59,799 nt of DNA from a virus (Duplodnaviria; Caudoviricetes). Positions 8,938-50,261 of the stretch are shown piece by piece. The DNA lies in IMG/VR virus record IMGVR_UViG_3300021964_000069, positions 1 through 59,799 of that record. One strand, 5' to 3'. How positions within the stretch are numbered: the first letter of the stretch is position 1; the number at the start of each line of letters is the position of its first letter. The notes beneath the pieces were generated by a model. The model saw only the letters and a list, made by a program, of their open reading frames with translations. It was not told where the DNA came from and searched no databases. A program made the position numbers and the translations under genes.

Positions 8938-9223
8938 TTACTTCATATTCCGGCAAACGACTTTCAATATCATCAACATATATTATAGCTTCACCACCAC
9001 CAATTGCGTCAGCAGTTTCTTTAATACGATCAATAATAGTATCAAAGTCTGGTTCATAATAATACGTGTCATATTCCCAATCAATATTTTTATGATCATT
9101 TGTCATAACGGTTAGCTCATAGCCATCAGCTGTATTCCAAGTGCTAATCTCAAGATCGGGATAGCCTCGATAGTCGTCAGTAATTTGTGCTACATTTAGT
9201 AGCTCAGCTAGTTTTTCAATCAT
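8906..9223 (-). CDS. Highly acidic hypothetical protein
   Basis: 105 aa, D/E- and Y-rich; first ORF downstream of the tRNA. Confidence 0.75.
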   Translation of the reverse strand: MIEKLAELLNVAQITDDYRGYPDLEISTWNTADGYELTVMTNDHKNIDWEYDTYYYEPDFDTIIDRIKETADAIGGGEAIIYVDDIESRLPEYEVNDYIERYENE

Positions 9224-9245
9224 TATATTTAATTTAAAAAGTTAG

Positions 9246-9318
9246 TTGCGTGGGCAGGATTCGAACCTGCGACCTCAGGGTTATGAGCCCTGCGAGCTGG
9301 CCACTGCTCTACCACGCT
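9246..9318 (-). tRNA. tRNA-Met(CAT), initiator type
   Basis: Minus strand AGCGTGG TAGAGCAGTGGCCAGCTC G CAGGG CTCATAA CCCTG AGGTC GCAGG TTCGAAT CCTGC CCACGCA A. Unpaired 1:72 position and three consecutive G-C pairs in the anticodon stem are fMet hallmarks; CCA is not encoded. Confidence 0.93.
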
Positions 9319-9325
9319 AAAAAAT

Positions 9326-9568
9326 GCAAGTGCACAGACTGGTGGATTTTTATCTGTACTTTAGTCCAGTAATACTTGCTGAGTCTCACCATTGCTTTTC
9401 GTTCACCCTTGCAAGAGGTACGTCGGTTTTTTGACTCTATATAAGATACCGAGGGCGCAGCACATTACCTGTCTTTTTAACTAGTATTATTGCTCGTCAG
9501 CATTCCCTCGGTGTAATATTAATGCTTCTCTGAGTAATGCCTTACTACGCGGTTTTCACTAATATTAC
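9326..9568 (-). ncRNA. Putative structured ncRNA(s): four closely packed stem-closed modules
   Basis: No ORF in the track here and GC-richer than its flanks. Closing stems at 9513-9524/9557-9568, 9448-9455/9505-9512, 9381-9385/9433-9437 and 9326-9331/9374-9379; lies between two tRNA-like genes. Confidence 0.6.
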
Positions 9569-9573
9569 TTTTG

Positions 9574-9649
9574 TGGACGTGGGAGGAGTCGAACCTCCGT
9601 TTGCTGATAGTGTACTTTCGAACTTTGTCAGCACTTACCCGGCACGCCC
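9574..9649 (-). ncRNA. tRNA-like RNA resembling the tmRNA tRNA-like domain (Ala identity)
   Basis: GGGCGTG/CACGTCC acceptor stem with G3.U70 and discriminator A; T-arm GGAGG TTCGACT CCTCC; stemless D-loop CCGGGTAAG; long irregular hairpin TGCTGA...TCAGCA instead of an anticodon arm; 3-nt AAC connector. Confidence 0.75.
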
Positions 9650-9650
9650 A

Positions 9651-9851
9651 TTATTTGCGTCGCCAAGATCGGTGCACTGCTGCACTTGTTGCTTGGTCAA
9701 CGACTTGTATTTCTAACACTTGTTTGCTACCGATTATAGGAACATAGCTATATAATTGTGTATCAGAACATTGCACACATTTATTATAACCTAAATCTAA
9801 TCTTGCTTGTGGCATTGTGTTGCCGCATCTACAGTATTTCATATTGAGCAT
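9651..9851 (-). CDS. DksA/TraR-like C4 zinc-finger protein
   Basis: CRCGNTMPQARLDLGYNKCVQCS matches the C..CG..IP.ARL......C..C pattern. Confidence 0.6.
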   Translation of the reverse strand: MLNMKYCRCGNTMPQARLDLGYNKCVQCSDTQLYSYVPIIGSKQVLEIQVVDQATSAAVHRSWRRK

Positions 9852-10044
9852 TTATTTTTATATATTGATTATTTTCATTCCAAGCGTCTGCTGACATATA
9901 ACCTACGCGTTGATAAACATAATTATCAAGGTGTTGCATCATTTGTTTACGCTCACTTGTTAATTCAGGCTTTTTGCATTTTTTAATAAAGTGAATAACT
10001 CTTGCGCCGTTATCATTTTCGCCATAAAATACCCAGTTTTTCAT
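9829..10044 (-). CDS. Small early hypothetical protein
   Basis: Overlap-coupled ORF. Confidence 0.7.
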   Translation of the reverse strand: MKNWVFYGENDNGARVIHFIKKCKKPELTSERKQMMQHLDNYVYQRVGYMSADAWNENNQYIKINAQYEIL

Positions 10045-16063: not shown

Positions 16064-17644
16064 ATGGCACAATTTGGTGGGCCTAAACTTGTCAAAAAAA
16101 TGTATTTTGATGGTGAGGCTAAGGAGAAACTAATTAATGGAATAAATAAAATAGCTAATGCCGTAGGCTCCACATTAGGAGCTAGCGGTAAAACTGTTAT
16201 TATAGAAGACGACTTCGGTGGTCCTCAAGTTACTAAAGATGGTGTAACCGTCGCTAACAGTATTTTATTACAGAGTCCGGTAGAAAACCTAGCGGTATCT
16301 ATGATGAAACAAGCTGCCCAAAAAACAGCTACTGTGGCCGGAGATGGTACAACAACATCTATAGTTTTAACAAAAGCTATTATTGAAAACTATTATTTTA
16401 AAAAGGGCGAAAAGCATTCTTTTAGGGATATTAAAGCCGGTATGGAAGCTTATAAAGACCATATCATTAATATACTTAATAAGAAAGCAATTCCTGTTAA
16501 AAATAAGCAATTAACTCAAGTTGCAACTATTTCTGCTAATAATGATGTAGAGCTAGGGGAAACCATAGCTAAAGCATTTACTGAAGCCGGTAATAATGGC
16601 GTGGTGGCAATGGAAACATCGCCAAGCAATGAAACTTATGTTACCTCTGTACAAGGAACTAAAATAGGTAGTACGGCTAAAAGTCCGCATTTTTATACTA
16701 ATGCCGAAAAAGAAATAACTGAACTTGAGAATCCTCTTGTATTTATTAGCGCATCGGATATACCAAATATGCGTAAAATCCAAGATATTCTGGAGTATGC
16801 GATAAAGTCCAATCGCTCTATACTCCTAGTTGCCCCATTAGAATCGCAGCCGCTAGCTGCACTGTCTATGAATAAAGTAAAGGGCAACATTAAAGTCAAC
16901 GTTGTAGATCCACCTAGTTTTGGACTTAAGAGAAAAGATATACTAGATGATCTTGCGTTGCTTGTCGGGGCTAAAGTTTTTGACGAAAGCCTGGGTGATT
17001 CAATTGATGCAATCACCCCTGACATGCTAGGAACAGCCGATAAGGCTATCTCAGATAAAGATGGTACTGTACTTATTGTTGAAAACAAGCCTGAAGAAGT
17101 GCAGGAAAGAATTAAGTATTTAAAATCTGTTCTTGAAAAAGAAGACCATCACGTTATGACTCGGCATTTAAATGACAGACTTGCATTATTATCAGGAGGT
17201 GTTTCTGTAATATATGTTGGTGCTGACACTGAAGTTGAGTTAAAAGAAAAACAAGACAGAGTAGATGATGCTATACACGCTGTACGTGCGGCTAAGAAAG
17301 AAGGCATTCTTCCTGGCGGCGGCAGTGCTTTAGCTTATGCTGCAGCAGCGGATTGGGAATTTAAAGGTACCGCCGGTTTTTTAACTGGCGTAGAAATACT
17401 CAGTAGAGCACTTGCAGCACCATTTACCAAAATACTTACAAATGCAGGCTTAGATCCTTCTGCTTATACACTAAACAAGTGGGGAGAAGGTATTGATGTT
17501 ACTTGCGGACAGAAAGAAGATATGATTAAAAAAGGTATTGTTGATCCATTAATGGTCACAAAAACCGCTTTAAATAATTCTGTATCTGTTGCTTCTACTA
17601 TATTATCGACCGATTGTGTAATCAGTAATATACGTGAAGAATGA
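16064..17644 (+). CDS. groEL: Chaperonin GroEL (phage-encoded)
   Basis: VTKDGVTVA, AGDGTTT, VATISANND, LSGGV.VI.VGA.TEVELKEK.DRVDDA.HA.RAA..EGI.PGGG, GIVDP; no GGM tail. Confidence 0.97.
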   Translation: MAQFGGPKLVKKMYFDGEAKEKLINGINKIANAVGSTLGASGKTVIIEDDFGGPQVTKDGVTVANSILLQSPVENLAVSMMKQAAQKTATVAGDGTTTSIVLTKAIIENYYFKKGEKHSFRDIKAGMEAYKDHIINILNKKAIPVKNKQLTQVATISANNDVELGETIAKAFTEAGNNGVVAMETSPSNETYVTSVQGTKIGSTAKSPHFYTNAEKEITELENPLVFISASDIPNMRKIQDILEYAIKSNRSILLVAPLESQPLAALSMNKVKGNIKVNVVDPPSFGLKRKDILDDLALLVGAKVFDESLGDSIDAITPDMLGTADKAISDKDGTVLIVENKPEEVQERIKYLKSVLEKEDHHVMTRHLNDRLALLSGGVSVIYVGADTEVELKEKQDRVDDAIHAVRAAKKEGILPGGGSALAYAAAADWEFKGTAGFLTGVEILSRALAAPFTKILTNAGLDPSAYTLNKWGEGIDVTCGQKEDMIKKGIVDPLMVTKTALNNSVSVASTILSTDCVISNIREE

Positions 17645-25764: not shown

Positions 25765-28700
25765 ATGGGCATTAAATTCAAATCGCCACTAGCGCTTTCG
25801 GCACACAGGGCTATAGCACATAGCGATGATGCCCAAACGCTAGAAGTAACAGTTGTAACAAAAACAGCTGCGCACCCTGAATTTGGTAATGGCAGTACAA
25901 ATGGGTATTCCATAGATGGCGTAGAAGGCCCTTATTTGGAATTTACTCCTGGTAATACATATAAGTTTGATCAGTCAGATAGCTCTAATACAGGGCATCC
26001 TTTGGCTTTTTATGAGGACGCGGCAAAAACTACATCATATACATCTGGCGTAACAACAGTTGGAACACCTGGATCATCAGGAGCTTATACTCAAATAATA
26101 CCAACAGCTTCAACGCCTCCTATACTTTATTACCAATGTACTGCTCATTCTTTAATGGGTAGCTATACCAAATTTGGTACAGGTTCTCAGGGGGATACTT
26201 ATACGTTTAGTGCCTCACAAGATGGTGATAATGTTGATTTATTATTGGATGCTGGTTCTGGAACAGATTCTACTGTTCAATTAACAGCAGGTACAAATGT
26301 TACTTTAACTAGAAATAGTGCTTCTGAAGTAACTATTGATGCTTCAGGAGAAGCGGAATCTGCACTTAAAATACTTTTAACTGTTAAGAATGTATCCGGA
26401 GGATCGCTTAGTCCCGGAACGCTTGTAAGGGTAGCCCCAACAGCAACTCCCCCTTCTGGAAATGTTTTAGAAGTAGACGTAGCTGATAATAGTGCTTCGT
26501 CCACAATGCCTGCTATAGGTATACTAATAGATACTATAGCTGATCAAGCAGAAGGAAACTGTGTTGCTTTTGGTAGAGCTGCTGGATTTTCTACGTCAGG
26601 TTATACTGAAGGAGACCCTATATGGGTTGGTAGTAGTGGTGCATTTACAGGTACAAAACCAACGGGAACAGCCTTAATACAAAGGGTTGGTCAGATTATT
26701 AAAGTACATAGTTCTAACGGTAGTATTGAAGTGTTTGGTGCAGGAAGATCTAATGATGTTCCAAATATTCCTCAAGATCAATTATGGTTAGGTAATTCAA
26801 GTGGTGTTGCTACAGCTACAAGTCATACCGTAGAGAACATATCTAATGTAACTACATCATCTAAAATAGATGGTCAATCATTAGTTTGGGATGCTACAAA
26901 TAATTATTGGAAAAACGCAACCGTTTCTGGAGGCGGAGGCGGTACAGTAACAGAGGCGTTTAAAACTTTTGCAGTATCAGGACAAAGTGATATTGTAGCC
27001 GATGGCCCTACTGATACATTAAATGTAGCGGCAGGTAGCAATATTACTTTAACTACAGATGCTACAACAGATACCCTTACGATTGCATCTACTGGCGCAG
27101 GTGGCGGCAATGAGCTTTCCATTGAAACAAATGAATTTACTGCAACTGCTAATCAAACAGCTTTTGTAATATCTTCTGAGATAACATCAAGCTCTAGCAC
27201 ACAAGTTTATATTGACGGAGTATATCAATCAAAAGATAATTATACAACGTCTGGATCAACTGTAACTTTTAGTACAGGTGTTCCTGTTAATTCAAAAGTA
27301 GAAATAGTACATTTTATTTCTGTATTATCAAAAGTATATACTGATGACTTTACAGGTGACGGCTCTACAGTTGCTTTTACAGCTTCTAATGACGTTACAG
27401 ATGAAAATGTTACACAAATATACATAGACGGAGTTTATCAGTCTAAAGACAATTATTCAACTTCTGGCACGACCATTACATTCTCCACCGCACCACCTAA
27501 TGGGAGTGCCATTGAAGTTGTTCATTTTGTACCAGCAACTTATTCAACTTTAAATAGTAATCAGTTTACAGGTACAGGATCACAAACAGATTTTACACTA
27601 ACTCAATCAGTTGAAGAAGATTCATCTTTTGTTTTTTTACAAGGTGTATATCAAGAGAAAAGCACGTATAGCATAAGCGGAACAACACTTACTTTTACAA
27701 CAGCACCGCAAAGTGGATATTCAGTAGAGGTAATAACTGTTGGGCAAGTTTCAATGCGCCCTGATACTATAGATATTGACAACTTTAGTGGCACTGGTTC
27801 ACAAGTAGATTATACTTTAACATCTACCCCTAGCAATGAAAATGCAATTGATGTCTATATAAATGGTTTATATCAACAAAAAGATACGTTTAGCTTATCT
27901 GGCAAAACTTTAACGTTTTCTACCGCTCCACCAAACAACTCAACAATTGAAGTTAAACATCAATTTATAGCCAGTGTAGGTTCAGGTTCAGTAGATTTAA
28001 CAGCTGGTACTGGTATTGGCATTACAGAAAATTCAACAAATAATTTTACTATTTCTTCATCTGTTGAAGCAGGTGTTGATTGGCAATCATCAATTAAAAC
28101 TGCAGATTTTACAGCAGTTGCTGGCAAAGGATATTTTGTTAATACAACTAGCTCAGCGGTAACAGTCACACTTCCTAGTTCACCTAGTTTAGGAAATGAA
28201 GTGCATATAGTTGATTATGCTGGTACAGCTGATACAAATAAAATAACAATTACCTCTAGTGATAACATTAATAGTGCAGGTGGTGATGTATTTATAGATT
28301 ACGAAAGAGGTAGTGTTGCTATAGTTTATATTGACGCTACTCAAGGTTGGGTGGCTTACAATGCCGCGAATGAATCTAGCAATGCGCTAGCTCCTGATTT
28401 ACCTTTAACAGTAGACTATTTAGTAGCTGCTGGTGGAGGTGGCGGCGGCGGCGGCGCGTTTACTAATGCTAATGGCGGGGGTGGTGGTGGTGCTGGCGGC
28501 TTAAGAACTTCTTATGGTTCAACAACTGGTGGGGGTGGCTCTTCAGAAAACAGTTTATCTCTTGCTGTGGCAACAAATTACACAGTTACAATAGGAGCTG
28601 GAGGTAATGGTGGTCCCACTACTTCTGGGGCTACCAGCGGTAGTAATGGTTCTAATTCTGTGTTTTCTACAATAACTTCAACTGGAGGTGGTGGAGCTGG

Positions 28701-45929: not shown

Positions 45930-48900
45930 ATGCCAGAAATTAAAAGACTCTTTAACGCGAGTCGAATGAATCGCGATTTAGATGAAAAAATGCTTAAGCC
46001 CGGTGAATATCGAGAAGCATTAAATATAAATGTTAGCAAGTCAGAAAGCTCAGATATAGGTTCAGTTGAAAATATATTAGGAAATAAGCTTATTGTTGAC
46101 ACAGCAATATCTAATGCCAAAACAATTGGGCAATATAGAGACAACGGTGATGAAAAAATATATTATTTTATTACCAACAATAATTCGTATAACCATATTA
46201 ATTCTGGTTCTCACCAAATAATTGAATACGATCAGAAAGCAAATAAATCAACTATAATAGTAAACAGTGCGGCTTTAAACTTTCATCAAGATTATCCAAT
46301 AACAGGAATTAATTTAGTAGATAAATTATTGTTTTGGACAGATGATCGCAATCCGCCAAGAAAAATAAACGTAGAAACTGCAAAAAACAACGCAAACTAT
46401 TATAATCTATCGTCGGATATTGATAATTTAATATCAGTAGCTAAATATGCCCCTTATAATGCGGCAACAATTGTTGGTGTATCCGACGTTGATGAAAATG
46501 GTGATCCTATTACATCAAACTTTTTAGAAAATAAATTAATTAGGTTTTCTTATAGATACCAATTTGAAGATGGTGAATATAGTATATTGGCTCCTTTTAC
46601 GCCCGTATGCTTTTCAAGATTAGATAATATTGATACGATAGCATCAGATATAAATGATTTTGGTGAAATTGAAACATTTGTTAATGCTATTAAATCTGTA
46701 CAACTTTCTGTACCAACTCCATCAAATTATGGTATTCAAAAGGTTGAATTAATATATAAAGAAACAGGATCCGGAGCTCTTTATGTTGTTGAAAAAAAGA
46801 TTGTAACAACAGAAACATCTGTTAACTTCTTTTACAAATCTCAAGACCCATTTAAAACTTTACCTAGCGATCAGCTAACACGTGTATATGACTCAGTACC
46901 ACGTAAAGCTAAATCACAAGAGCTAGCTGGCGGAAGATTAATATACGGTAATTATTTACAAAACTATAATATTCCAACATTATCTTTTACAGTAACAAGA
47001 ACTGGGGAAACTTCTTCTAGGTATGCCGCTTTAGACGAATCTATGTCTGTAAAATCACGTAGAACATACCAGGTCGGCGTAGTTTTAGCTGATAAATTTG
47101 GCAGGCAAACTCCTGTGCTTTTATCCGAAACAGGCGGTGATACAGTATTTATTGATGCGTCTACTGGGGAGGCTGATAGCACTACTGCTTTCAATTCGTT
47201 GCGTATAGCATTTTCTCAAGCTTCAATCAATGCTTTGCAGGCTTTAGATTGGTGTTATTCATATAGAATAGTAGTAAAACAAAGAGAACAAGAATACTAC
47301 AATTGGATTTCTAGTATTACCTCTTTAAATACAGTTGTGCGTTTAGGGGATAGTATAAATAAAATACCTAGAGATCAAACAGCTGTTATACCGCCAAGTA
47401 CAGGAACAAGTATATCTCCATGCGATGTATCTGTATATCCTAAAATTTTAAACGGCGTAAACAAAACAACCTCTAGCTTAACAAAAATACAATCTATTGC
47501 AAACCCTTCTGGAAATGCAACCGTACCTACAGACGGTGTTACTAGCGGTATTTGTGTTTTTGAAACTGAGCCAGTTATTTCTGACTTAGATATATTTTAT
47601 GAAACATCTACCGGCGGACTAATATCAGGGCTAACAACTACAGCTATAGATATTCAGTTTTATAATTGTTATTTATTAACATTTAGTTCTGGTGCTCATA
47701 TTGAAATAAATAGATTACGTGCTGGCTATAATGAAAAAGCATTTGATGTTGGCGTAAGAGCATATTTAGTAAAAGAAAACTTTGCTGAAGAAAGAAGATT
47801 TAATACTTTAATTCATTCAAGTGGTTTATTTAATTCAAGAACAAATATAAATTATATAAATCAATTTAATGAATCTGAAGGCGGTCTTACTATTTCTTTG
47901 GACCCTCAGGATGGGTCAATACAAAAGCTATTTGCTGATGATACACAAGTAGTTGTATTCCAGGAAGATAAAGTTTCAAGATCACCTGTAAATAAAGATT
48001 TTATATATTCTGCAGAGGGTGGAGCTATTCCTGTTACTACAAGTTCTCAATTTTTAGGAACAATAGCGCCTTATGCTGGTGAATTTGGTATTTCAAAAGA
48101 AGCAAAATCTTTTGCTTATTATGGTTATGCTAAATATTTTACAGATAAAAACCGAGGATCTGTAATGCGTTTATCACAAAATGGATTAGTTGAAATATCT
48201 AGAAATGGTATGAGCGACTTTTTTAGGGATGCGCTAAAAAAATCAACAGATATTATTGGTTCATATGACGAATACCAAGGACTGTATCATTTAACAATTA
48301 TAGGTGAAGGGTTCAGCGGATTTAAAGATACAAATGTAGCAACTGCTTCTGATAATTATTTTACAATATCATTTGATGAAGGCTCACAAGGTTGGACTAG
48401 TTTTAAATCTTTTGAACAAGAAGGTGGCATTAGCTTAAATAATATTTATTATAGTTTTAAAAATGGTAAATTATGGAAGCATAACGATGACACCGTAAAC
48501 AGAAACACCTTTTATGGTGGAACTTCTAATGAATCATATATTGAACCTATATTAAATGACAACCCCTCGACAATTAAAACTTTTAATAACATAAGTTACG
48601 AAGGAACTGATGGGTGGGAATTAGATTTTTTAGAAACTGATTTAGGATCTGTTGGTGACGCTCCAGCTTTAGATAATTATAATTTAATATCATTACAATT
48701 ATCAGGAGCCGCTGATAATAGCGTTATTGTAGGGGAAAGGTCTATATATGCAAAAGAAAATGATGTAATCCAATGGACCATTACTGCAAAACCTAAAAAT
48801 GCAGATTATTCATTTGATACAATTACTGATGTTATTTTAACAGGTAGTGGGCTAACAATACAAAGTCCGTCAGCAATTACAGATGGCAATTTGGTGTTTT

Positions 48901-50261
48901 TAATAAGCTATACTGCTGGAACTATTGATGAAACAAAAACAGTAACTATTTCTGGCACTGGTGCTGATCTTATTTATGAAGTAAATCTTTTAACAATAAG
49001 TGTTGGGGATTCCGTTTCAAACGCAGCTGTAAGTCCTGCTTTAGCTACATTTACCAATGCAGGTGATACAGATTTAGATATATTAGTAACGCCATTAAGT
49101 ACACATTATATAGATCCAGGTAATATTATAGCAAACACATCGTCGTTTGGTTCATATAATGTTTCAGGTATATCTGGTACAGAAACTAAAACAGTTATTG
49201 TTAGAAATTACGGTAGCAATGCTTTTGCTATTGATGATTTAAAGCAACCAACTGTGCCACTTACTAAAGGTAAAACCTATATATTTGATCAAAGTGATAG
49301 CTCAAATACCAATCATCCCTTAAGATTTAGTACAACTTCTAATGGTACACATAATAGCGGAGCTGAATATACTACAGGGGTAACAACTAATGGAACACCT
49401 GGAAGTGCTGGAGCATATACACAAATTGTAGTTACCTCTACAACACCTACTTTATATTATTACTGTAGTAATCATAGTAATATGGGTGGAAGTGTAAATA
49501 TAGTTCCGTTCAACATAACTATATCAAATACTGGGCTTACTGCAAGCTTTCCGGTTACAGTACCAACGGTTGCAACAAACAATTCAATTGGAATTAGTGG
49601 GACTGCAATTGTTAAACCTACTTTAACTTGGGCAACGCCTGCTAGTGGTACATTAACAACACCAAGCTCTACTACCATTAATGTTGCTTATGATGCAACG
49701 CCTTATGATACTGTGGATAGAAGAACCGCTGCAATTAAATGGACGGCTTCAGATACAACTAAAGTATTCTTACCGGATGGGCATGGGTTAAGCTATGACG
49801 TTGTTGGTAATGATATTACTACTACTCTTGAAAGCTCTACGCAAGAATATTTAGAAAAAACAATTGTTTTACCTAAAATATTTGAAGATACCGTAGCTAC
49901 TGCTACAATAACAGGAACAGGTGAAGTTACAGCGTCTGTAGGTACTTATGTGACTTCAATTACATTTGCAGCCTCTGGAGATCCTGATACTTCTATAACT
50001 AACTCTAACGGAGCAACCGTGCCAATACAAATATCCGCTAATCAAAACTGGGTGTTAATAAATGGCTCTCCGGGTACAAAAGTAGTAGATCCTGATGGCA
50101 TTAACTTTTTAGGGTCAAACTATCCATTTACAATTAATGTATCTGATAATACAACTGGATCGCAAAGAACTGCTACTATTACAATTAGTAAATATAATAA
50201 TAGCCGTGTAACAGGTTCTGCGGTAGCGGACCAAACAATTAGTATAACACAAAATGCATAA
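45930..50261 (+). CDS. Tail stabilisation (P22 gp10/nozzle-like) protein with C-terminal adhesin domains
   Basis: MNRDLDE...GEYREALNI, LFWTDDRNPPRKIN, GEFGIS, YFTDKNRG.V.RLS, GWTSF; then Ig-like and cupredoxin-like domains. Confidence 0.8.
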   Translation: MPEIKRLFNASRMNRDLDEKMLKPGEYREALNINVSKSESSDIGSVENILGNKLIVDTAISNAKTIGQYRDNGDEKIYYFITNNNSYNHINSGSHQIIEYDQKANKSTIIVNSAALNFHQDYPITGINLVDKLLFWTDDRNPPRKINVETAKNNANYYNLSSDIDNLISVAKYAPYNAATIVGVSDVDENGDPITSNFLENKLIRFSYRYQFEDGEYSILAPFTPVCFSRLDNIDTIASDINDFGEIETFVNAIKSVQLSVPTPSNYGIQKVELIYKETGSGALYVVEKKIVTTETSVNFFYKSQDPFKTLPSDQLTRVYDSVPRKAKSQELAGGRLIYGNYLQNYNIPTLSFTVTRTGETSSRYAALDESMSVKSRRTYQVGVVLADKFGRQTPVLLSETGGDTVFIDASTGEADSTTAFNSLRIAFSQASINALQALDWCYSYRIVVKQREQEYYNWISSITSLNTVVRLGDSINKIPRDQTAVIPPSTGTSISPCDVSVYPKILNGVNKTTSSLTKIQSIANPSGNATVPTDGVTSGICVFETEPVISDLDIFYETSTGGLISGLTTTAIDIQFYNCYLLTFSSGAHIEINRLRAGYNEKAFDVGVRAYLVKENFAEERRFNTLIHSSGLFNSRTNINYINQFNESEGGLTISLDPQDGSIQKLFADDTQVVVFQEDKVSRSPVNKDFIYSAEGGAIPVTTSSQFLGTIAPYAGEFGISKEAKSFAYYGYAKYFTDKNRGSVMRLSQNGLVEISRNGMSDFFRDALKKSTDIIGSYDEYQGLYHLTIIGEGFSGFKDTNVATASDNYFTISFDEGSQGWTSFKSFEQEGGISLNNIYYSFKNGKLWKHNDDTVNRNTFYGGTSNESYIEPILNDNPSTIKTFNNISYEGTDGWELDFLETDLGSVGDAPALDNYNLISLQLSGAADNSVIVGERSIYAKENDVIQWTITAKPKNADYSFDTITDVILTGSGLTIQSPSAITDGNLVFLISYTAGTIDETKTVTISGTGADLIYEVNLLTISVGDSVSNAAVSPALATFTNAGDTDLDILVTPLSTHYIDPGNIIANTSSFGSYNVSGISGTETKTVIVRNYGSNAFAIDDLKQPTVPLTKGKTYIFDQSDSSNTNHPLRFSTTSNGTHNSGAEYTTGVTTNGTPGSAGAYTQIVVTSTTPTLYYYCSNHSNMGGSVNIVPFNITISNTGLTASFPVTVPTVATNNSIGISGTAIVKPTLTWATPASGTLTTPSSTTINVAYDATPYDTVDRRTAAIKWTASDTTKVFLPDGHGLSYDVVGNDITTTLESSTQEYLEKTIVLPKIFEDTVATATITGTGEVTASVGTYVTSITFAASGDPDTSITNSNGATVPIQISANQNWVLINGSPGTKVVDPDGINFLGSNYPFTINVSDNTTGSQRTATITISKYNNSRVTGSAVADQTISITQNA

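What the first reader, a model, noticed from the sequence alone, without database searches (positions are those of the whole stretch)
9574..9649. Minimal tmRNA tRNA-like-domain RNA with alanine identity but no mRNA domain
Seen (minus strand): GGGCGUG-CCGGGUAAG-UGCUGACAAAGUUCGAAAGUACACUAUCAGCA-AAC-GGAGGUUCGACUCCUCC-CACGUCC-A(CAA). It has a 7-bp acceptor stem with G3.U70 and A73, a canonical T-arm, a GG-containing D-loop without a stem, and an irregular helix capped near a GAAA loop in place of an anticodon arm, with a 3-nt connector. Known: G3.U70 is the AlaRS determinant. A stemless D-loop, helix 2 and a short GAC connector define the SmpB-binding TLD of tmRNA, and tag-less tmRNAs are known from some mitochondria. 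Inference: a phage mini-tmRNA that could sequester SmpB to block trans-translation, rescue ribosomes without a degradation tag, or act as a decoy against anticodon nucleases and tRNA-sensing defences.
Basis: partly seen in the sequence, partly recalled or inferred. Interest (0 to 1): 0.88.

Follow-up and report, generated by a model that had tools for sequence, protein, structure and literature searches.

The report
Phage tmRNA-like RNA without message
A marine phage carries a small, well-conserved RNA gene that looks like only the tRNA-like end of the bacterial ribosome-rescue RNA (tmRNA), one of a large unreported phage family of such RNAs whose middle hairpin is swapped between phages.

Summary
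The 76-nt element (minus strand, 9649-9574) is exactly as described. ARAGORN and Rfam's curated thresholds miss it. Rfam's tmRNA model matches it end to end below threshold (28.4 bits, cut-off 47) and beats the tRNA model.

It is a real structured RNA. Ten distinct relatives keep 99% of pairs, with compensatory changes in 6 of 21, and G3.U70 and A73 never change.

It belongs to a large family in uncultivated phages: 95 distinct sequences held here. All share one frame: an Ala-type acceptor stem, a stemless GG D-loop (mostly A8), an A-C connector and a T arm. Between these sit about 50 kinds of central hairpin. Some members have a canonical tmRNA D-loop, and one passes Rfam's cut-off.

The one published precedent is the "TLD only" tmRNA of mycobacteriophage DS6A, reported to inhibit tmRNA in E. 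coli.

The central hairpin here has a 20-nt core. That core also occurs free-standing, or in frames without a T arm, in related phages. A conserved 66-aa zinc-ribbon ORF sits just upstream.

The structural reading is supported. SmpB sequestration remains an inference, and a natural tRNA scaffold for hairpin cargo is a live rival. Verdict: new variant of a known kind.

The parts
9574..9649 (-). TLD-only tmRNA-like RNA gene (76 nt up to discriminator A73; trailer CAA at 9573-9571, no encoded CCA)
   Evidence: Sequence. Rfam tmRNA match end to end at 28.4 bits. Covariation.
9643..9649 (-). Acceptor stem, 5' strand GGGCGUG (G3 of G3.U70)
   Evidence: Pairs 1-7 with 66-72 hold in 10 of 10 sequences. 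Pair 6:67 shows UA, AU and UG. It is paired in 94 of 94 frames, where the search pattern left it free.
9634..9642 (-). D-loop equivalent CCGGGUAAG, no stem, contains GG
   Evidence: In the family profile G12 occurs in 72 of 94 and G13 in 54 of 94. A8 occurs in 77 of 94, but the window itself has C8.
9602..9633 (-). Central hairpin ('hairpin A'): 6-bp closing stem plus the 20-nt core CAAAGUUC-GAAA-GUACACUA (core 9608-9627)
   Evidence: The closing stem covaries at 3 pairs. The core also occurs bare, and in frames without a T arm, in other phages. There is a single copy in the window.
9599..9601 (-). Connector AAC
   Evidence: The two bases before the T stem are A in 89 of 94 and C in 84 of 94 frames. 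The search pattern did not fix them.
9582..9598 (-). T arm GGAGG-UUCGACU-CCUCC
   Evidence: Stem pairs 2 and 3 are paired in 94 of 94 frames with all four Watson-Crick types.
9575..9581 (-). Acceptor stem, 3' strand CACGUCC (U70), followed by A73 at 9574
9651..9851 (-). 66-aa CxC...CxxC zinc-ribbon-like ORF whose stop codon ends 1 nt before the RNA
   Evidence: Homologues lie just upstream of a frame, on the same strand, in 52 of 53 loci that have one. No Pfam, PHROG or PDB match.
9449..9511 (-). Second conserved structured element ('module C'), closed by CCGAGGG/CCCUCGG
   Evidence: Six distinct sequences show compensatory changes. Its position relative to the TLD gene differs between phages.
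9245..9318 (-). tRNA-Met (CAU), same strand, with the same kind of 3' trailer (A-CUA)
   Evidence: ARAGORN and Rfam at 65.2 bits. In L004 it follows the TLD gene after 2 nt.

Best explanation
This is a gene for a small stable RNA derived from the tRNA-like domain (TLD) of tmRNA. It has lost the whole mRNA-like part, making it a 'TLD-only' tmRNA.

Shown here: a conserved, covarying three-helix fold. It has an alanine-type acceptor stem (G3.U70, A73), a T arm, a stemless GG loop and a short A-C connector. It sits in a tRNA-type gene context.

Inferred:
- It is transcribed with the upstream ORF and the downstream tRNA-Met.
- Its ends are cut by the host's tRNA-processing enzymes and CCA is added.
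- Host AlaRS charges it with alanine and host SmpB (and EF-Tu) bind it.
- Because it has no message to resume on, it most likely competes with host tmRNA for SmpB and for stalled ribosomes. That would damp trans-translation and tagging during infection. The published TLD-only molecule is reported to do this in E. coli.

The central hairpin occupies the place of tmRNA helix 2. It is a conserved module in its own right, and its role is not explained by this model.
For: Match to the tmRNA model:
- Rfam tmRNA matches end to end (model positions 1-374). It is the best family of the tRNA clan for the element at 28.4 bits, E 1.9e-9.
- The same holds for 12 frames in 17 related loci at 26.5-52.5 bits. 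One of these (L149) passes the 47-bit cut-off, and none is best matched by tRNA.
- ARAGORN finds no tRNA here. It calls only 13 of 104 distinct frame-pattern sequences as tRNA.

Structure:
- 99% of cells are paired, 6 of 21 pairs are compensatory, and 0 of 500 shuffles reach this.
- RNAalifold gives the same fold.
- Across 94 distinct frames, the three pairs that the search pattern left free are paired in 94 of 94. Shuffles give 54-61.

Alanine identity:
- G3.U70 is present in 10 of 10 sequences.
- With 3:70 left free in a complete scan, 48 of 51 sequences not called tRNA have G:U, whereas 17 of the 19 sequences called tRNA have a Watson-Crick 3:70 pair.
- In cellular genomes the same acceptor and T-arm pattern is tRNA-Ala in 79 of 98 distinct sequences.

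tmRNA-type rather than tRNA-type details:
- A8 occurs in 77 of 94 frames, against U8 in 12.
- An A-C connector occurs in 89 and 84 of 94.
- Many family D-loops read GG-UU-(A/C)-GAC, like the real tmRNAs of five MAGs.

Precedent:
- The DS6A TLD-only element sits at 28478-28560 and scores 43.2 bits, also below the cut-off. It has the same architecture and the same A-CUA trailer.
- It is described as inhibiting tmRNA, perhaps by titrating SmpB (PMC4131195 and PMC11915505, passages seen).

tRNA-like context:
- tRNA-Met lies downstream on the same strand, only 2 nt away in L004.
- Frames sit beside tRNAs in L149 and L138.

The phage has no SmpB gene of its own, so any partner is the host's.
Against: - The tmRNA score is below Rfam's cut-off. 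It is carried by the acceptor stem and T arm. Run alone, the same model gives 20-40 bits to ordinary tRNA-sized sequences in bacterial genomes. The two I printed carry a D arm and, by my reading of the printed sequences, Ala anticodons. Descent from tRNA-Ala instead of tmRNA is therefore not excluded.
- The window's copy has C8, not A8, and AAC, not GAC.
- G3.U70 is lost in two frame-type relatives, L011 and L382, which have A3-U70.
- Three of nine judgeable relatives lack the element (L006, L008, L013), so it is dispensable.
- Some genomes carry two frames with different hairpins (L067). The hairpin core is kept where the T arm or the whole frame is gone. Simple SmpB titration does not need either feature.
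- Binding, charging and expression were not shown. RNA-library contigs cover the element, but they may contain DNA, and some cross its 5' end.
Confidence: 0.55

Rival explanations
1. Scaffold for cargo. The tRNA-like frame mainly provides processing, CCA-capped ends and nuclease resistance, or delivery to AlaRS, EF-Tu or the ribosome. The active part is the central hairpin (here hairpin A), for example as a protein-binding aptamer or decoy, possibly working with the upstream zinc-ribbon protein.
For: - 95 distinct frames carry about 50 kinds of central insert.
- At least four insert types also occur outside any frame in related phages.
- The 16 fixed bases of hairpin A's core are identical under at least five unrelated closing stems (UGCUGA, GUAGUUAA, AGCUAG, AGCUGA, GGUGA). 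They are also kept in frames that lost the T arm.
- Insertions keep the apical stem paired: L004 has 2 more pairs.
- L067 carries two frames with different inserts plus a bare hairpin A.
- L081 carries 'module B' both bare and framed.
- The engineered tRNA scaffold shows that such grafts are processed and stabilised in bacteria (PMC3753655, passages seen).
Against: - Exact conservation of the core is partly built in, because the hairpin scan required it. Frames found without that requirement show variants (F031, F049, L012).
- The frame itself is under strong, specific constraint (G3.U70, A73, A-C connector), more than stability alone would need.
- L011 keeps a frame with no hairpin at all.
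- No partner or target of hairpin A is known. It matches no Rfam family.
- Its core was not found in 401 genomes of the class of a Bacteroidetes MAG.
Confidence: 0.25
2. Decoy against defence. The RNA mimics tRNA-Ala or tmRNA to absorb or blind host systems that sense or cut tRNA-like RNAs, or that carry SmpB-like domains. It would not act on trans-translation itself.
For: - The frame is a minimal acceptor and T-arm mimic with Ala identity.
- CoCoNuT type IV restriction systems carry SmpB-like OB folds predicted to bind tmRNA (PMC11090510, passages seen).
- The rapid turnover of inserts and the patchy presence among relatives fit an arms race.
Against: - No defence or anti-defence gene was identified beside it.
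- The PADLOC library was not searched.
- No data link any such system to these hosts.
Confidence: 0.12
3. Non-functional remnant: a decayed tRNA-Ala or tmRNA fragment, or the leftover of integration into ssrA.
For: - It is missed by gene finders.
- It is absent from some relatives.
- Variants without a T arm or without a hairpin exist.
Against: - Compensatory changes and full pairing are kept across 94 distinct sequences.
- Both acceptor strands are present.
- The window has no tyrosine integrase domain.
Confidence: 0.04
4. A DNA-level signal (promoter, origin or recombination hairpin) rather than an RNA gene.
For: In some relatives the closing stem plus core can be read as TTGACA-N16-TATCAA (by eye).
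Against: - The promoter scan lists no site on the minus strand inside the element.
- L004 has 4 extra bases in the would-be spacer, yet keeps the hairpin paired.
- The stems covary.
- The likely hosts are Flavobacteriia. By my recollection, not from a call, their promoters differ from the sigma-70 consensus.
Confidence: 0.04

Closest known systems
TLD-only tmRNA of mycobacteriophage DS6A (Hudson, Lau and Williams 2014, PMC4131195; repeated in PMC11915505)
   Same: - Phage-encoded and about 80 nt.
- 7-bp acceptor stem with G3.U70 and A73.
- Stemless GG D-loop, one central irregular hairpin, short connector ending in AC, T arm.
- No tag frame, and an A-CUA trailer instead of CCA.
- Also below Rfam's tmRNA cut-off (43.2 bits).
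- My model R1, built on the window's kind, finds it at 29.7 bits, E 1.4e-5.
   Different: - Different host group and phage type: an actinobacterial temperate siphovirus, against a likely Flavobacteriia podovirus without an integrase.
- DS6A has the canonical D-loop ending GGUCGAC. The window has CCGGGUAAG.
- DS6A is a single reported case. Here there is a family of 95 distinct sequences with about 50 exchangeable central hairpins, free-standing copies of those hairpins, and a conserved upstream ORF.
Bacterial tmRNA (SsrA, Rfam RF00023), tRNA-like domain
   Same: Acceptor stem with G3.U70 and A73, T arm, no D stem, GG in the D-loop, an A-C connector before the T stem, and helix 2 in place of the anticodon arm.
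   Different: - No pseudoknots, no resume codon, no tag reading frame. 326 model positions are replaced by 39 nt.
- No encoded CCA.
- The score is below the gathering cut-off.
CDS-less organellar tmRNAs (jakobid mitochondria; about 65-bp plastid forms in Mallomonadaceae, PMC11915505 passage)
   Same: A tmRNA reduced to little more than the TLD, without a tag frame.
   Different: These are organellar genes that co-occur with an imported SmpB and are thought to act in rescue. Here the element is a viral gene facing an intact host tmRNA. I did not test the Rfam mt-tmRNA model separately.
Engineered 'tRNA scaffold' for recombinant RNA (PMC3753655, passages seen)
   Same: An acceptor stem and T arm are kept, and the anticodon arm is replaced by a hairpin of choice. 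The chimera is processed and protected like a tRNA.
   Different: It is man-made and keeps the D arm. The natural frame has tmRNA-type rather than tRNA-type details and strict Ala identity.
tRNA-Ala
   Same: The same acceptor and T-arm pattern is tRNA-Ala in 79 of 98 distinct cellular sequences. In the viral set, 5 of the 13 sequences that ARAGORN called tRNA are tRNA-Ala.
   Different: No D stem, no anticodon stem-loop, C8 or A8 instead of U8. ARAGORN makes no call and the tRNA model scores below the tmRNA model.

Membership tests
tmRNA (SsrA, RF00023) | 7-bp acceptor stem with G3.U70 and discriminator A73 (alanine identity) | tested here: met
   G:U in 10 of 10 sequences, and in 48 of 51 frame-type sequences when positions 3:70 were left free.
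tmRNA (SsrA, RF00023) | T arm with a 5-bp stem and a 7-nt T-loop | tested here: met
   GGAGG-UUCGACU-CCUCC. The stem covaries.
tmRNA (SsrA, RF00023) | D-loop without a stem, containing GG; A at position 8 | tested here: inconclusive
   No stem and GG are present. Position 8 is C in the window, but A in its closest relatives and in 77 of 94 frames.
tmRNA (SsrA, RF00023) | Short connector (G)AC between helix 2 and the T stem | tested here: met
   AAC in the window. A-C in 89 and 84 of 94 frames. The base before it is A in 57 and G in 16. Real tmRNAs of 5 MAGs have GGAC.
tmRNA (SsrA, RF00023) | mRNA-like domain with resume codon, tag reading frame and pseudoknots | tested here: not met
   Only 39 nt lie between the TLD halves. 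ARAGORN finds no tmRNA or tag. Read from GCU at the start of helix 2, the frame has no stop codon before the 3' end (by eye).
tmRNA (SsrA, RF00023) | Score at or above Rfam's gathering cut-off (47 bits) | tested here: not met
   28.4 bits. Of the 12 family members scored, only L149 passes, at 52.5 bits.
tmRNA (SsrA, RF00023) | Alanylation by AlaRS and binding by SmpB | not testable with these tools
   No tool offered here models RNA-protein binding. The window encodes no SmpB.
TLD-only phage tmRNA (DS6A type) | A complete TLD (both acceptor strands, D-loop, helix 2, connector, T arm) with no mRNA domain, encoded by a phage | tested here: met
   Side-by-side comparison with DS6A 28478-28560.
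TLD-only phage tmRNA (DS6A type) | Inhibits host trans-translation when expressed | not testable with these tools
   Known only from statements in PMC4131195 and PMC11915505 that cite Mao et al. 2009. That paper is not in the library and I did not read it.
tRNA (RF00005) | D arm and an anticodon arm with a 7-nt loop | tested here: not met
   No ARAGORN call. No tRNA hit at the gathering score. In the clan competition the tmRNA model outscores the tRNA model. The central helix has a 6-bp stem, a 4x4 internal loop, a 4-bp stem with U.U, and a tetraloop.

The most novel reading that the evidence does not exclude
The TLD frame is a natural, alanine-chargeable 'tRNA scaffold'. Phages of aquatic bacteria use it as a cassette holder. 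A pool of small structured RNA modules (hairpin A, module B and dozens more) is moved in and out of it. The frame gives each module tRNA-type processing and stability, and possibly access to SmpB, EF-Tu or the ribosome. The conserved 66-aa zinc-ribbon protein encoded just upstream may be its partner. If so, this is a modular phage RNA-effector system and not merely a tmRNA inhibitor.
Probability: 0.25. Interest if true: 0.85.

Novelty: new variant of a known kind. Interest (0 to 1): 0.62.

Why it matters
Trans-translation is the main ribosome-rescue pathway of bacteria, and how phages deal with it is little known. The literature I could search names one TLD-only phage tmRNA (DS6A). The 2025 tmRNA database paper lists 'rejecting truncations' as a filtering step (passage). 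I infer that this step would discard RNAs like this one.

Here the form turns out to be common in uncultivated aquatic phages:
- 77 in a complete scan of one sub-pattern;
- 95 distinct sequences held here.

The family is strongly constrained for alanine identity and is combined with exchangeable hairpin modules and a conserved small protein. It therefore offers a ready set of natural variants for two questions. Do phages shut down tmRNA-SmpB? Can tRNA-like frames serve as natural carriers for functional RNA modules?

Gene finders and Rfam's thresholds miss these genes, so phage annotation currently leaves them out.

Tried and rejected
- Intron-containing or decayed tRNA: rejected. There is no anticodon arm, no ARAGORN call, and strong covariation.
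- Two-piece (permuted) tmRNA using the 250 nt downstream: the permuted model gives only 13.9 bits, E 2. Both acceptor strands already flank the element. Dropped.
- Hidden tag frame: none found by eye. Some other family members hold short GCN-to-stop frames, which I regard as chance.
- Promoter reading of hairpin A: not supported.
- Upstream ORF as a TraR/DksA zinc finger: suggested by eye, but not supported. There is no Pfam hit for the window's ORF or for any of 25 members, no PHROG hit, and no significant PDB sequence match (only two rows, at E 0.46 and 1.2). Foldseek finds nothing at E <= 0.001. Its weak rows (E 3.7 and 6.7) include E. coli YbiI and a Chlamydia DksA.
- Hairpin A as a copy of a cellular RNA: the core pattern was not found in 401 genomes of the class of a Bacteroidetes MAG, and there was no Rfam hit. 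Resemblances I recalled to rRNA loops and to phage boxB were not tested and are dropped.
- Close relatives in cultured phages: blastn of the region and of the element found only tRNA-Met and T-arm-sized matches. tblastn with the 706-aa ORF found nothing.
- tmRNA-model search of four cultured or assembled relatives: nothing in MW202828 or phi10:1 and nothing relevant in elemoE. In Maribacter phage Panino an annotated 'tmRNA' overlaps tRNA-Asp and tRNA-Thr, and the Rfam hit borrows the tRNA-Asp T stem as its 5' strand. This is ambiguous and was not used.
- Host tmRNA mimicry: the frame's acceptor stem (GGGCGUG) differs at pairs 4 and 5 from the real tmRNAs of five MAGs that hold frames. It is not a copy of those.
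- AcrIIIA1, which binds t(m)RNA fragments (PMC11662646): no link to this element.
- Expression: all four RNA runs laid are assembled contigs. One contig of X19 starts at 9649 and one of X22 ends at 9650, which is the RNA's 5' end. However, another X19 contig (record 3) crosses that point. A loose end at 9651 reads, by my own reverse-complementing, as running on into a variant of the element. No DNA run was laid beside them, and RNA libraries can hold DNA. I count this as no more than a weak hint. Stretches without cover say nothing.
- Supplementary files were not consulted. The tables of PMC9004378 and of the tmRNA database paper may list further phage tmRNA forms.
- Mao et al. 2009 is not in the library. 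I know it only through two citing passages.
Full report
**What is there.**
- A 7-bp stem GGGCGUG/CACGUCC with G3.U70, followed by A.
- A 9-nt GG-containing loop with no stem.
- A 6-bp helix enclosing CAAA-GUUC-GAAA-GUAC-ACUA.
- The connector AAC.
- A canonical T arm.
- The trailer is CAA, so CCA is not encoded.

The window is a whole IMG/VR virus record of 59,799 bases, estimated 91% complete. The element starts 1 nt after the stop codon of a 66-aa ORF and lies 252 nt upstream of a tRNA-Met on the same strand.

**Gene finders.** ARAGORN calls only the tRNA-Met, and Rfam at curated thresholds lists only that tRNA. With permissive thresholds on 9100-10000, the best family is tmRNA (RF00023). The match runs from the first to the last model position at 28.4 bits against a cut-off of 47, E 1.9e-9, with 326 model positions replaced by 39 nt. 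Lower-scoring matches of the same clan were suppressed.

One caution applies. Run alone on bacterial genomes, the same model gives 20-40 bits to many 75-77-nt sequences. The two I printed have a D arm and, by my reading of the printed sequences, Ala anticodons. The score therefore mostly reflects an Ala-type acceptor stem plus a T arm. What separates the element from a tRNA is the lack of a D arm and an anticodon arm. The single sequence does not fold better than shuffles to a convincing degree: z -1.72, with 12 of 200 shuffles as good.

**Conservation and covariation.** The neighbouring DNA ligase found 15 related viral loci.
- Nine hold enough upstream DNA to judge.
- Five of these carry the element with a central hairpin (L002, L003, L004, L010, L012).
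- One carries the frame with no central hairpin (L011).
- Three carry nothing (L006, L008, L013).

A scan of IMG/VR for the hairpin core added more, giving 11 distinct framed sequences. On 10 of them, 99.0% of cells pair and 6 of 21 pairs changed on both sides (13 cells). No shuffle out of 500 reaches this, and sliding the partners gives 36-58% pairing and 0-1 such pairs. RNAalifold predicts the same acceptor stem, central helix and T arm. G3.U70 and A73 are invariant in this set. In L004 the apical stem is two pairs longer and still pairs, and the tRNA-Met follows after 2 nt.

**A large family.** A pattern for the frame found at least 119 stretches in IMG/VR. The pattern fixed acceptor strands of the GGGCGNG / CNCGTCCA type and the T-loop, and allowed any 38-68 nt between.
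- ARAGORN of them tRNA, five of them tRNA-Ala, and none tmRNA.
- The rest share one frame: GGGCGUG, then a loop typically AAAUGGUUAG(AC), then a variable hairpin of about 20-60 nt, then (A)AAC and the T arm, then CACGUCC-A-CUA.

At the three pairs the pattern left free, 94 of 94 distinct uncalled frames are paired, with all Watson-Crick types present. Shuffling gives 54-61. Positions not fixed by the pattern are also conserved. The two bases before the T stem are A (89 of 94) and C (84 of 94). Position 8 is A in 77 and U in 12. G12 and G13 occur in 72 and 54.

Some members have the canonical tmRNA D-loop ending in UUCGAC and a GGAC connector. These match the real tmRNAs of five MAGs.

In a clan-competitive Rfam scan of 17 loci, 12 frames were best matched by tmRNA at 26.5-52.5 bits. 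L149 was above the cut-off and none was best matched by tRNA. The frames of five loci were not listed at E <= 0.01.

**Alanine identity.** I repeated the scan with positions 3 and 70 free. For technical reasons it was anchored on the CTA trailer. This scan was complete: 77 stretches and 70 distinct sequences.
- Of 51 sequences not called tRNA, 48 have G:U, one A:U, one C:C and one C:U.
- Of 19 called tRNA, 17 have a Watson-Crick 3:70 pair.

In cellular genomes the G:U version of the pattern is tRNA-Ala in 79 of 98 distinct sequences. Eleven are uncalled, among them frame-type elements on MAG contigs labelled Bacteroidetes, Ilumatobacteraceae and Actinomycetes. G3.U70 as the AlaRS determinant is textbook knowledge and was not tested here.

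**The precedent.** Hudson, Lau and Williams (PMC4131195, passages seen) list 'Mycobacterium phage DS6A (TLD only)'. They write that a similar molecule, chargeable or not, strongly inhibits tmRNA, perhaps by titrating SmpB, citing Mao et al. 2009. The 2025 database paper repeats this and adds about 65-bp CDS-less plastid forms (PMC11915505).

I located the DS6A element at 28478-28560. It scores 43.2 bits, also below the cut-off, and has the same architecture and the same A-CUA trailer. My model of the window's kind finds it at 29.7 bits.

Searches for TLD-only, mini-, truncated, tag-less, minimal or tmRNA-like forms found no other phage report. A survey of phage tmRNAs by ARAGORN (PMC9004378, passages) concerns full-length one- and two-piece forms.

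**The central hairpin is a module.** The core CAAAGUUC-NNNN-GUACACUA was required exactly by my scan, so its invariance is partly built in. It occurs in four settings.
1. In the full frame.
2. In a frame that has lost the T arm.
3. As a bare hairpin with an unrelated 8-bp stem that overlaps the stop codon of homologues of the upstream ORF.
4. Before a terminator-like hairpin, with other tetraloops.

The closing stems differ completely while the core does not. Phages with the bare hairpin still carry frames with other inserts. L067 has two frames plus a bare hairpin.

A k-mer search showed at least three further insert types that occur both inside and outside frames. The 95 distinct frames fall into 50 insert clusters, and hairpin A is the largest with 12 members. 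Frames retrieved without requiring the core show small variants of it (F031, F049, L012).

The core matches no Rfam family. It occurs once in the window. It was not found in 401 genomes of the class of a Bacteroidetes MAG.

**Context.**
- The portal protein has relatives only in phages of Flavobacteriia: 87 of 87 records. These are Flavobacterium 68, Cellulophaga 15, Tenacibaculum 2, Maribacter 1 and one uncultured. A marine or estuarine Flavobacteriia host is therefore likely.
- DNA runs that hold the stretch are labelled estuary, seawater, mangrove, aquatic or sponge metagenomes; four carry no label.
- The phage encodes no SmpB, tyrosine integrase, RF-1/ArfB-type or CCA-adding domain.
- The upstream ORF belongs to a CxC...CxxC family with no known relatives.
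- Homologues at 33-86% identity occur in 53 of 263 loci. In 52 of these a frame follows on the same strand, usually within 600 nt. The loci were chosen for frames or hairpins, so only position and strand are unbiased.

**Expression.** Contigs assembled from RNA libraries of two studies cover the element and the tRNA-Met. One starts at 9649 and one ends at 9650. Other contigs cross that point, no DNA run was laid for comparison, and contigs cannot show ends. This is at most a weak hint of an RNA 5' end at the first G.

**Verdict.** The element is a functional, structured, tRNA-like RNA gene, best described as a TLD-only tmRNA relative. I put about 0.8 on that identity. A tRNA-Ala origin is not excluded.

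The most likely mode of action is engagement of host AlaRS, SmpB and EF-Tu, with competition against tmRNA. This is inferred from the published DS6A-type molecule. The modular, independently conserved central hairpin, the multiple frames per genome and the conserved partner ORF are not explained by that model. They keep a scaffold-for-cargo reading alive.

It is a new variant of a known kind. The kind has one published member. The variant is a widespread aquatic-phage family with exchangeable inserts.

Noticed in passing
window 9245-9318 (-): By eye, the tRNA-Met (CAU) has initiator-type marks: a 1:72 mismatch (A.A), three G-C pairs at the foot of the anticodon stem, and A11-U24. It carries the same A-CUA trailer as most TLD frames. 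The copies in L107 and L088 lack the GGG/CCC run.
   Followed up: partly
window 9449-9511 (-): A second conserved structured element ('module C'). Its closing stem is CCGAGGG/CCCUCGG and its inner hairpin is UUGC-UGACGA-GCAA. Six distinct sequences show compensatory changes. It lies downstream of the TLD gene here but upstream of it in L003, L021, L084 and L039. No Rfam match on its strand; the only overlapping row is a weak opposite-strand Glutamine-II hit (E 3.7).
   Followed up: partly
window 9651-9851 (-): A 66-aa CxC...CxxC zinc-ribbon-like ORF with a basic C-terminus (WRRK). Ten columns are invariant across 25 homologues. No Pfam, PHROG or PDB relatives. It is nearly always found directly upstream of a TLD frame on the same strand. 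AlphaFold mean pLDDT is 79.
   Followed up: yes
L035 (minus strand, about 140-500 of the reversed locus), L081, L124: A non-coding stretch of about 360 nt between the zinc-ribbon ORF and the next ORF holds a row of structured RNAs: bare hairpin A, 'module B' (closed by GUGUG/CACAC), further hairpins, then a TLD frame with a different insert.
   Followed up: partly
L011 20-66: A 47-nt frame with no central hairpin at all and A3-U70 instead of G3.U70. It may be a decaying copy or a minimal acceptor/T-arm minihelix.
   Followed up: no
Maribacter phage Panino PP540027, 27557-27889 (L400 1558-1890): The annotated tmRNA (ARAGORN 'tmRNA*') overlaps tRNA-Asp and tRNA-Thr. Rfam matches only 27560-27651 and uses the tRNA-Asp T stem as the 5' acceptor strand. 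The annotation looks doubtful.
   Followed up: partly
Arthrobacter phage Reedo NC_071032, about 27770-27855 (L362), and 46 further Arthrobacter phage records: Unannotated DNA between the primase/helicase and DNA polymerase I genes holds a T-arm-like hairpin. By eye it shows a 5-bp plus 7-bp stack and an A-CUA trailer but no G3.U70. It may be another kind of tRNA-like element.
   Followed up: no
window 16064-17644 (+) and 45930-50261 (+): A Cpn60/GroEL-family chaperonin gene (Pfam E 1.3e-55), and a 1443-aa protein with a crAss-phage muzzle C-terminal domain (E 9.6e-8).
   Followed up: no
F038, F090, F099, F100 and F077, F082, F084, F085, F092 (loci L136, L171, L174, L194; L211, L137, L206, L205, L176): Some central inserts contain two copies of a 10-14-nt motif (ACCGAGNCAUGGUA, or GACAGUAUCU). 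This hints at paired binding sites.
   Followed up: no
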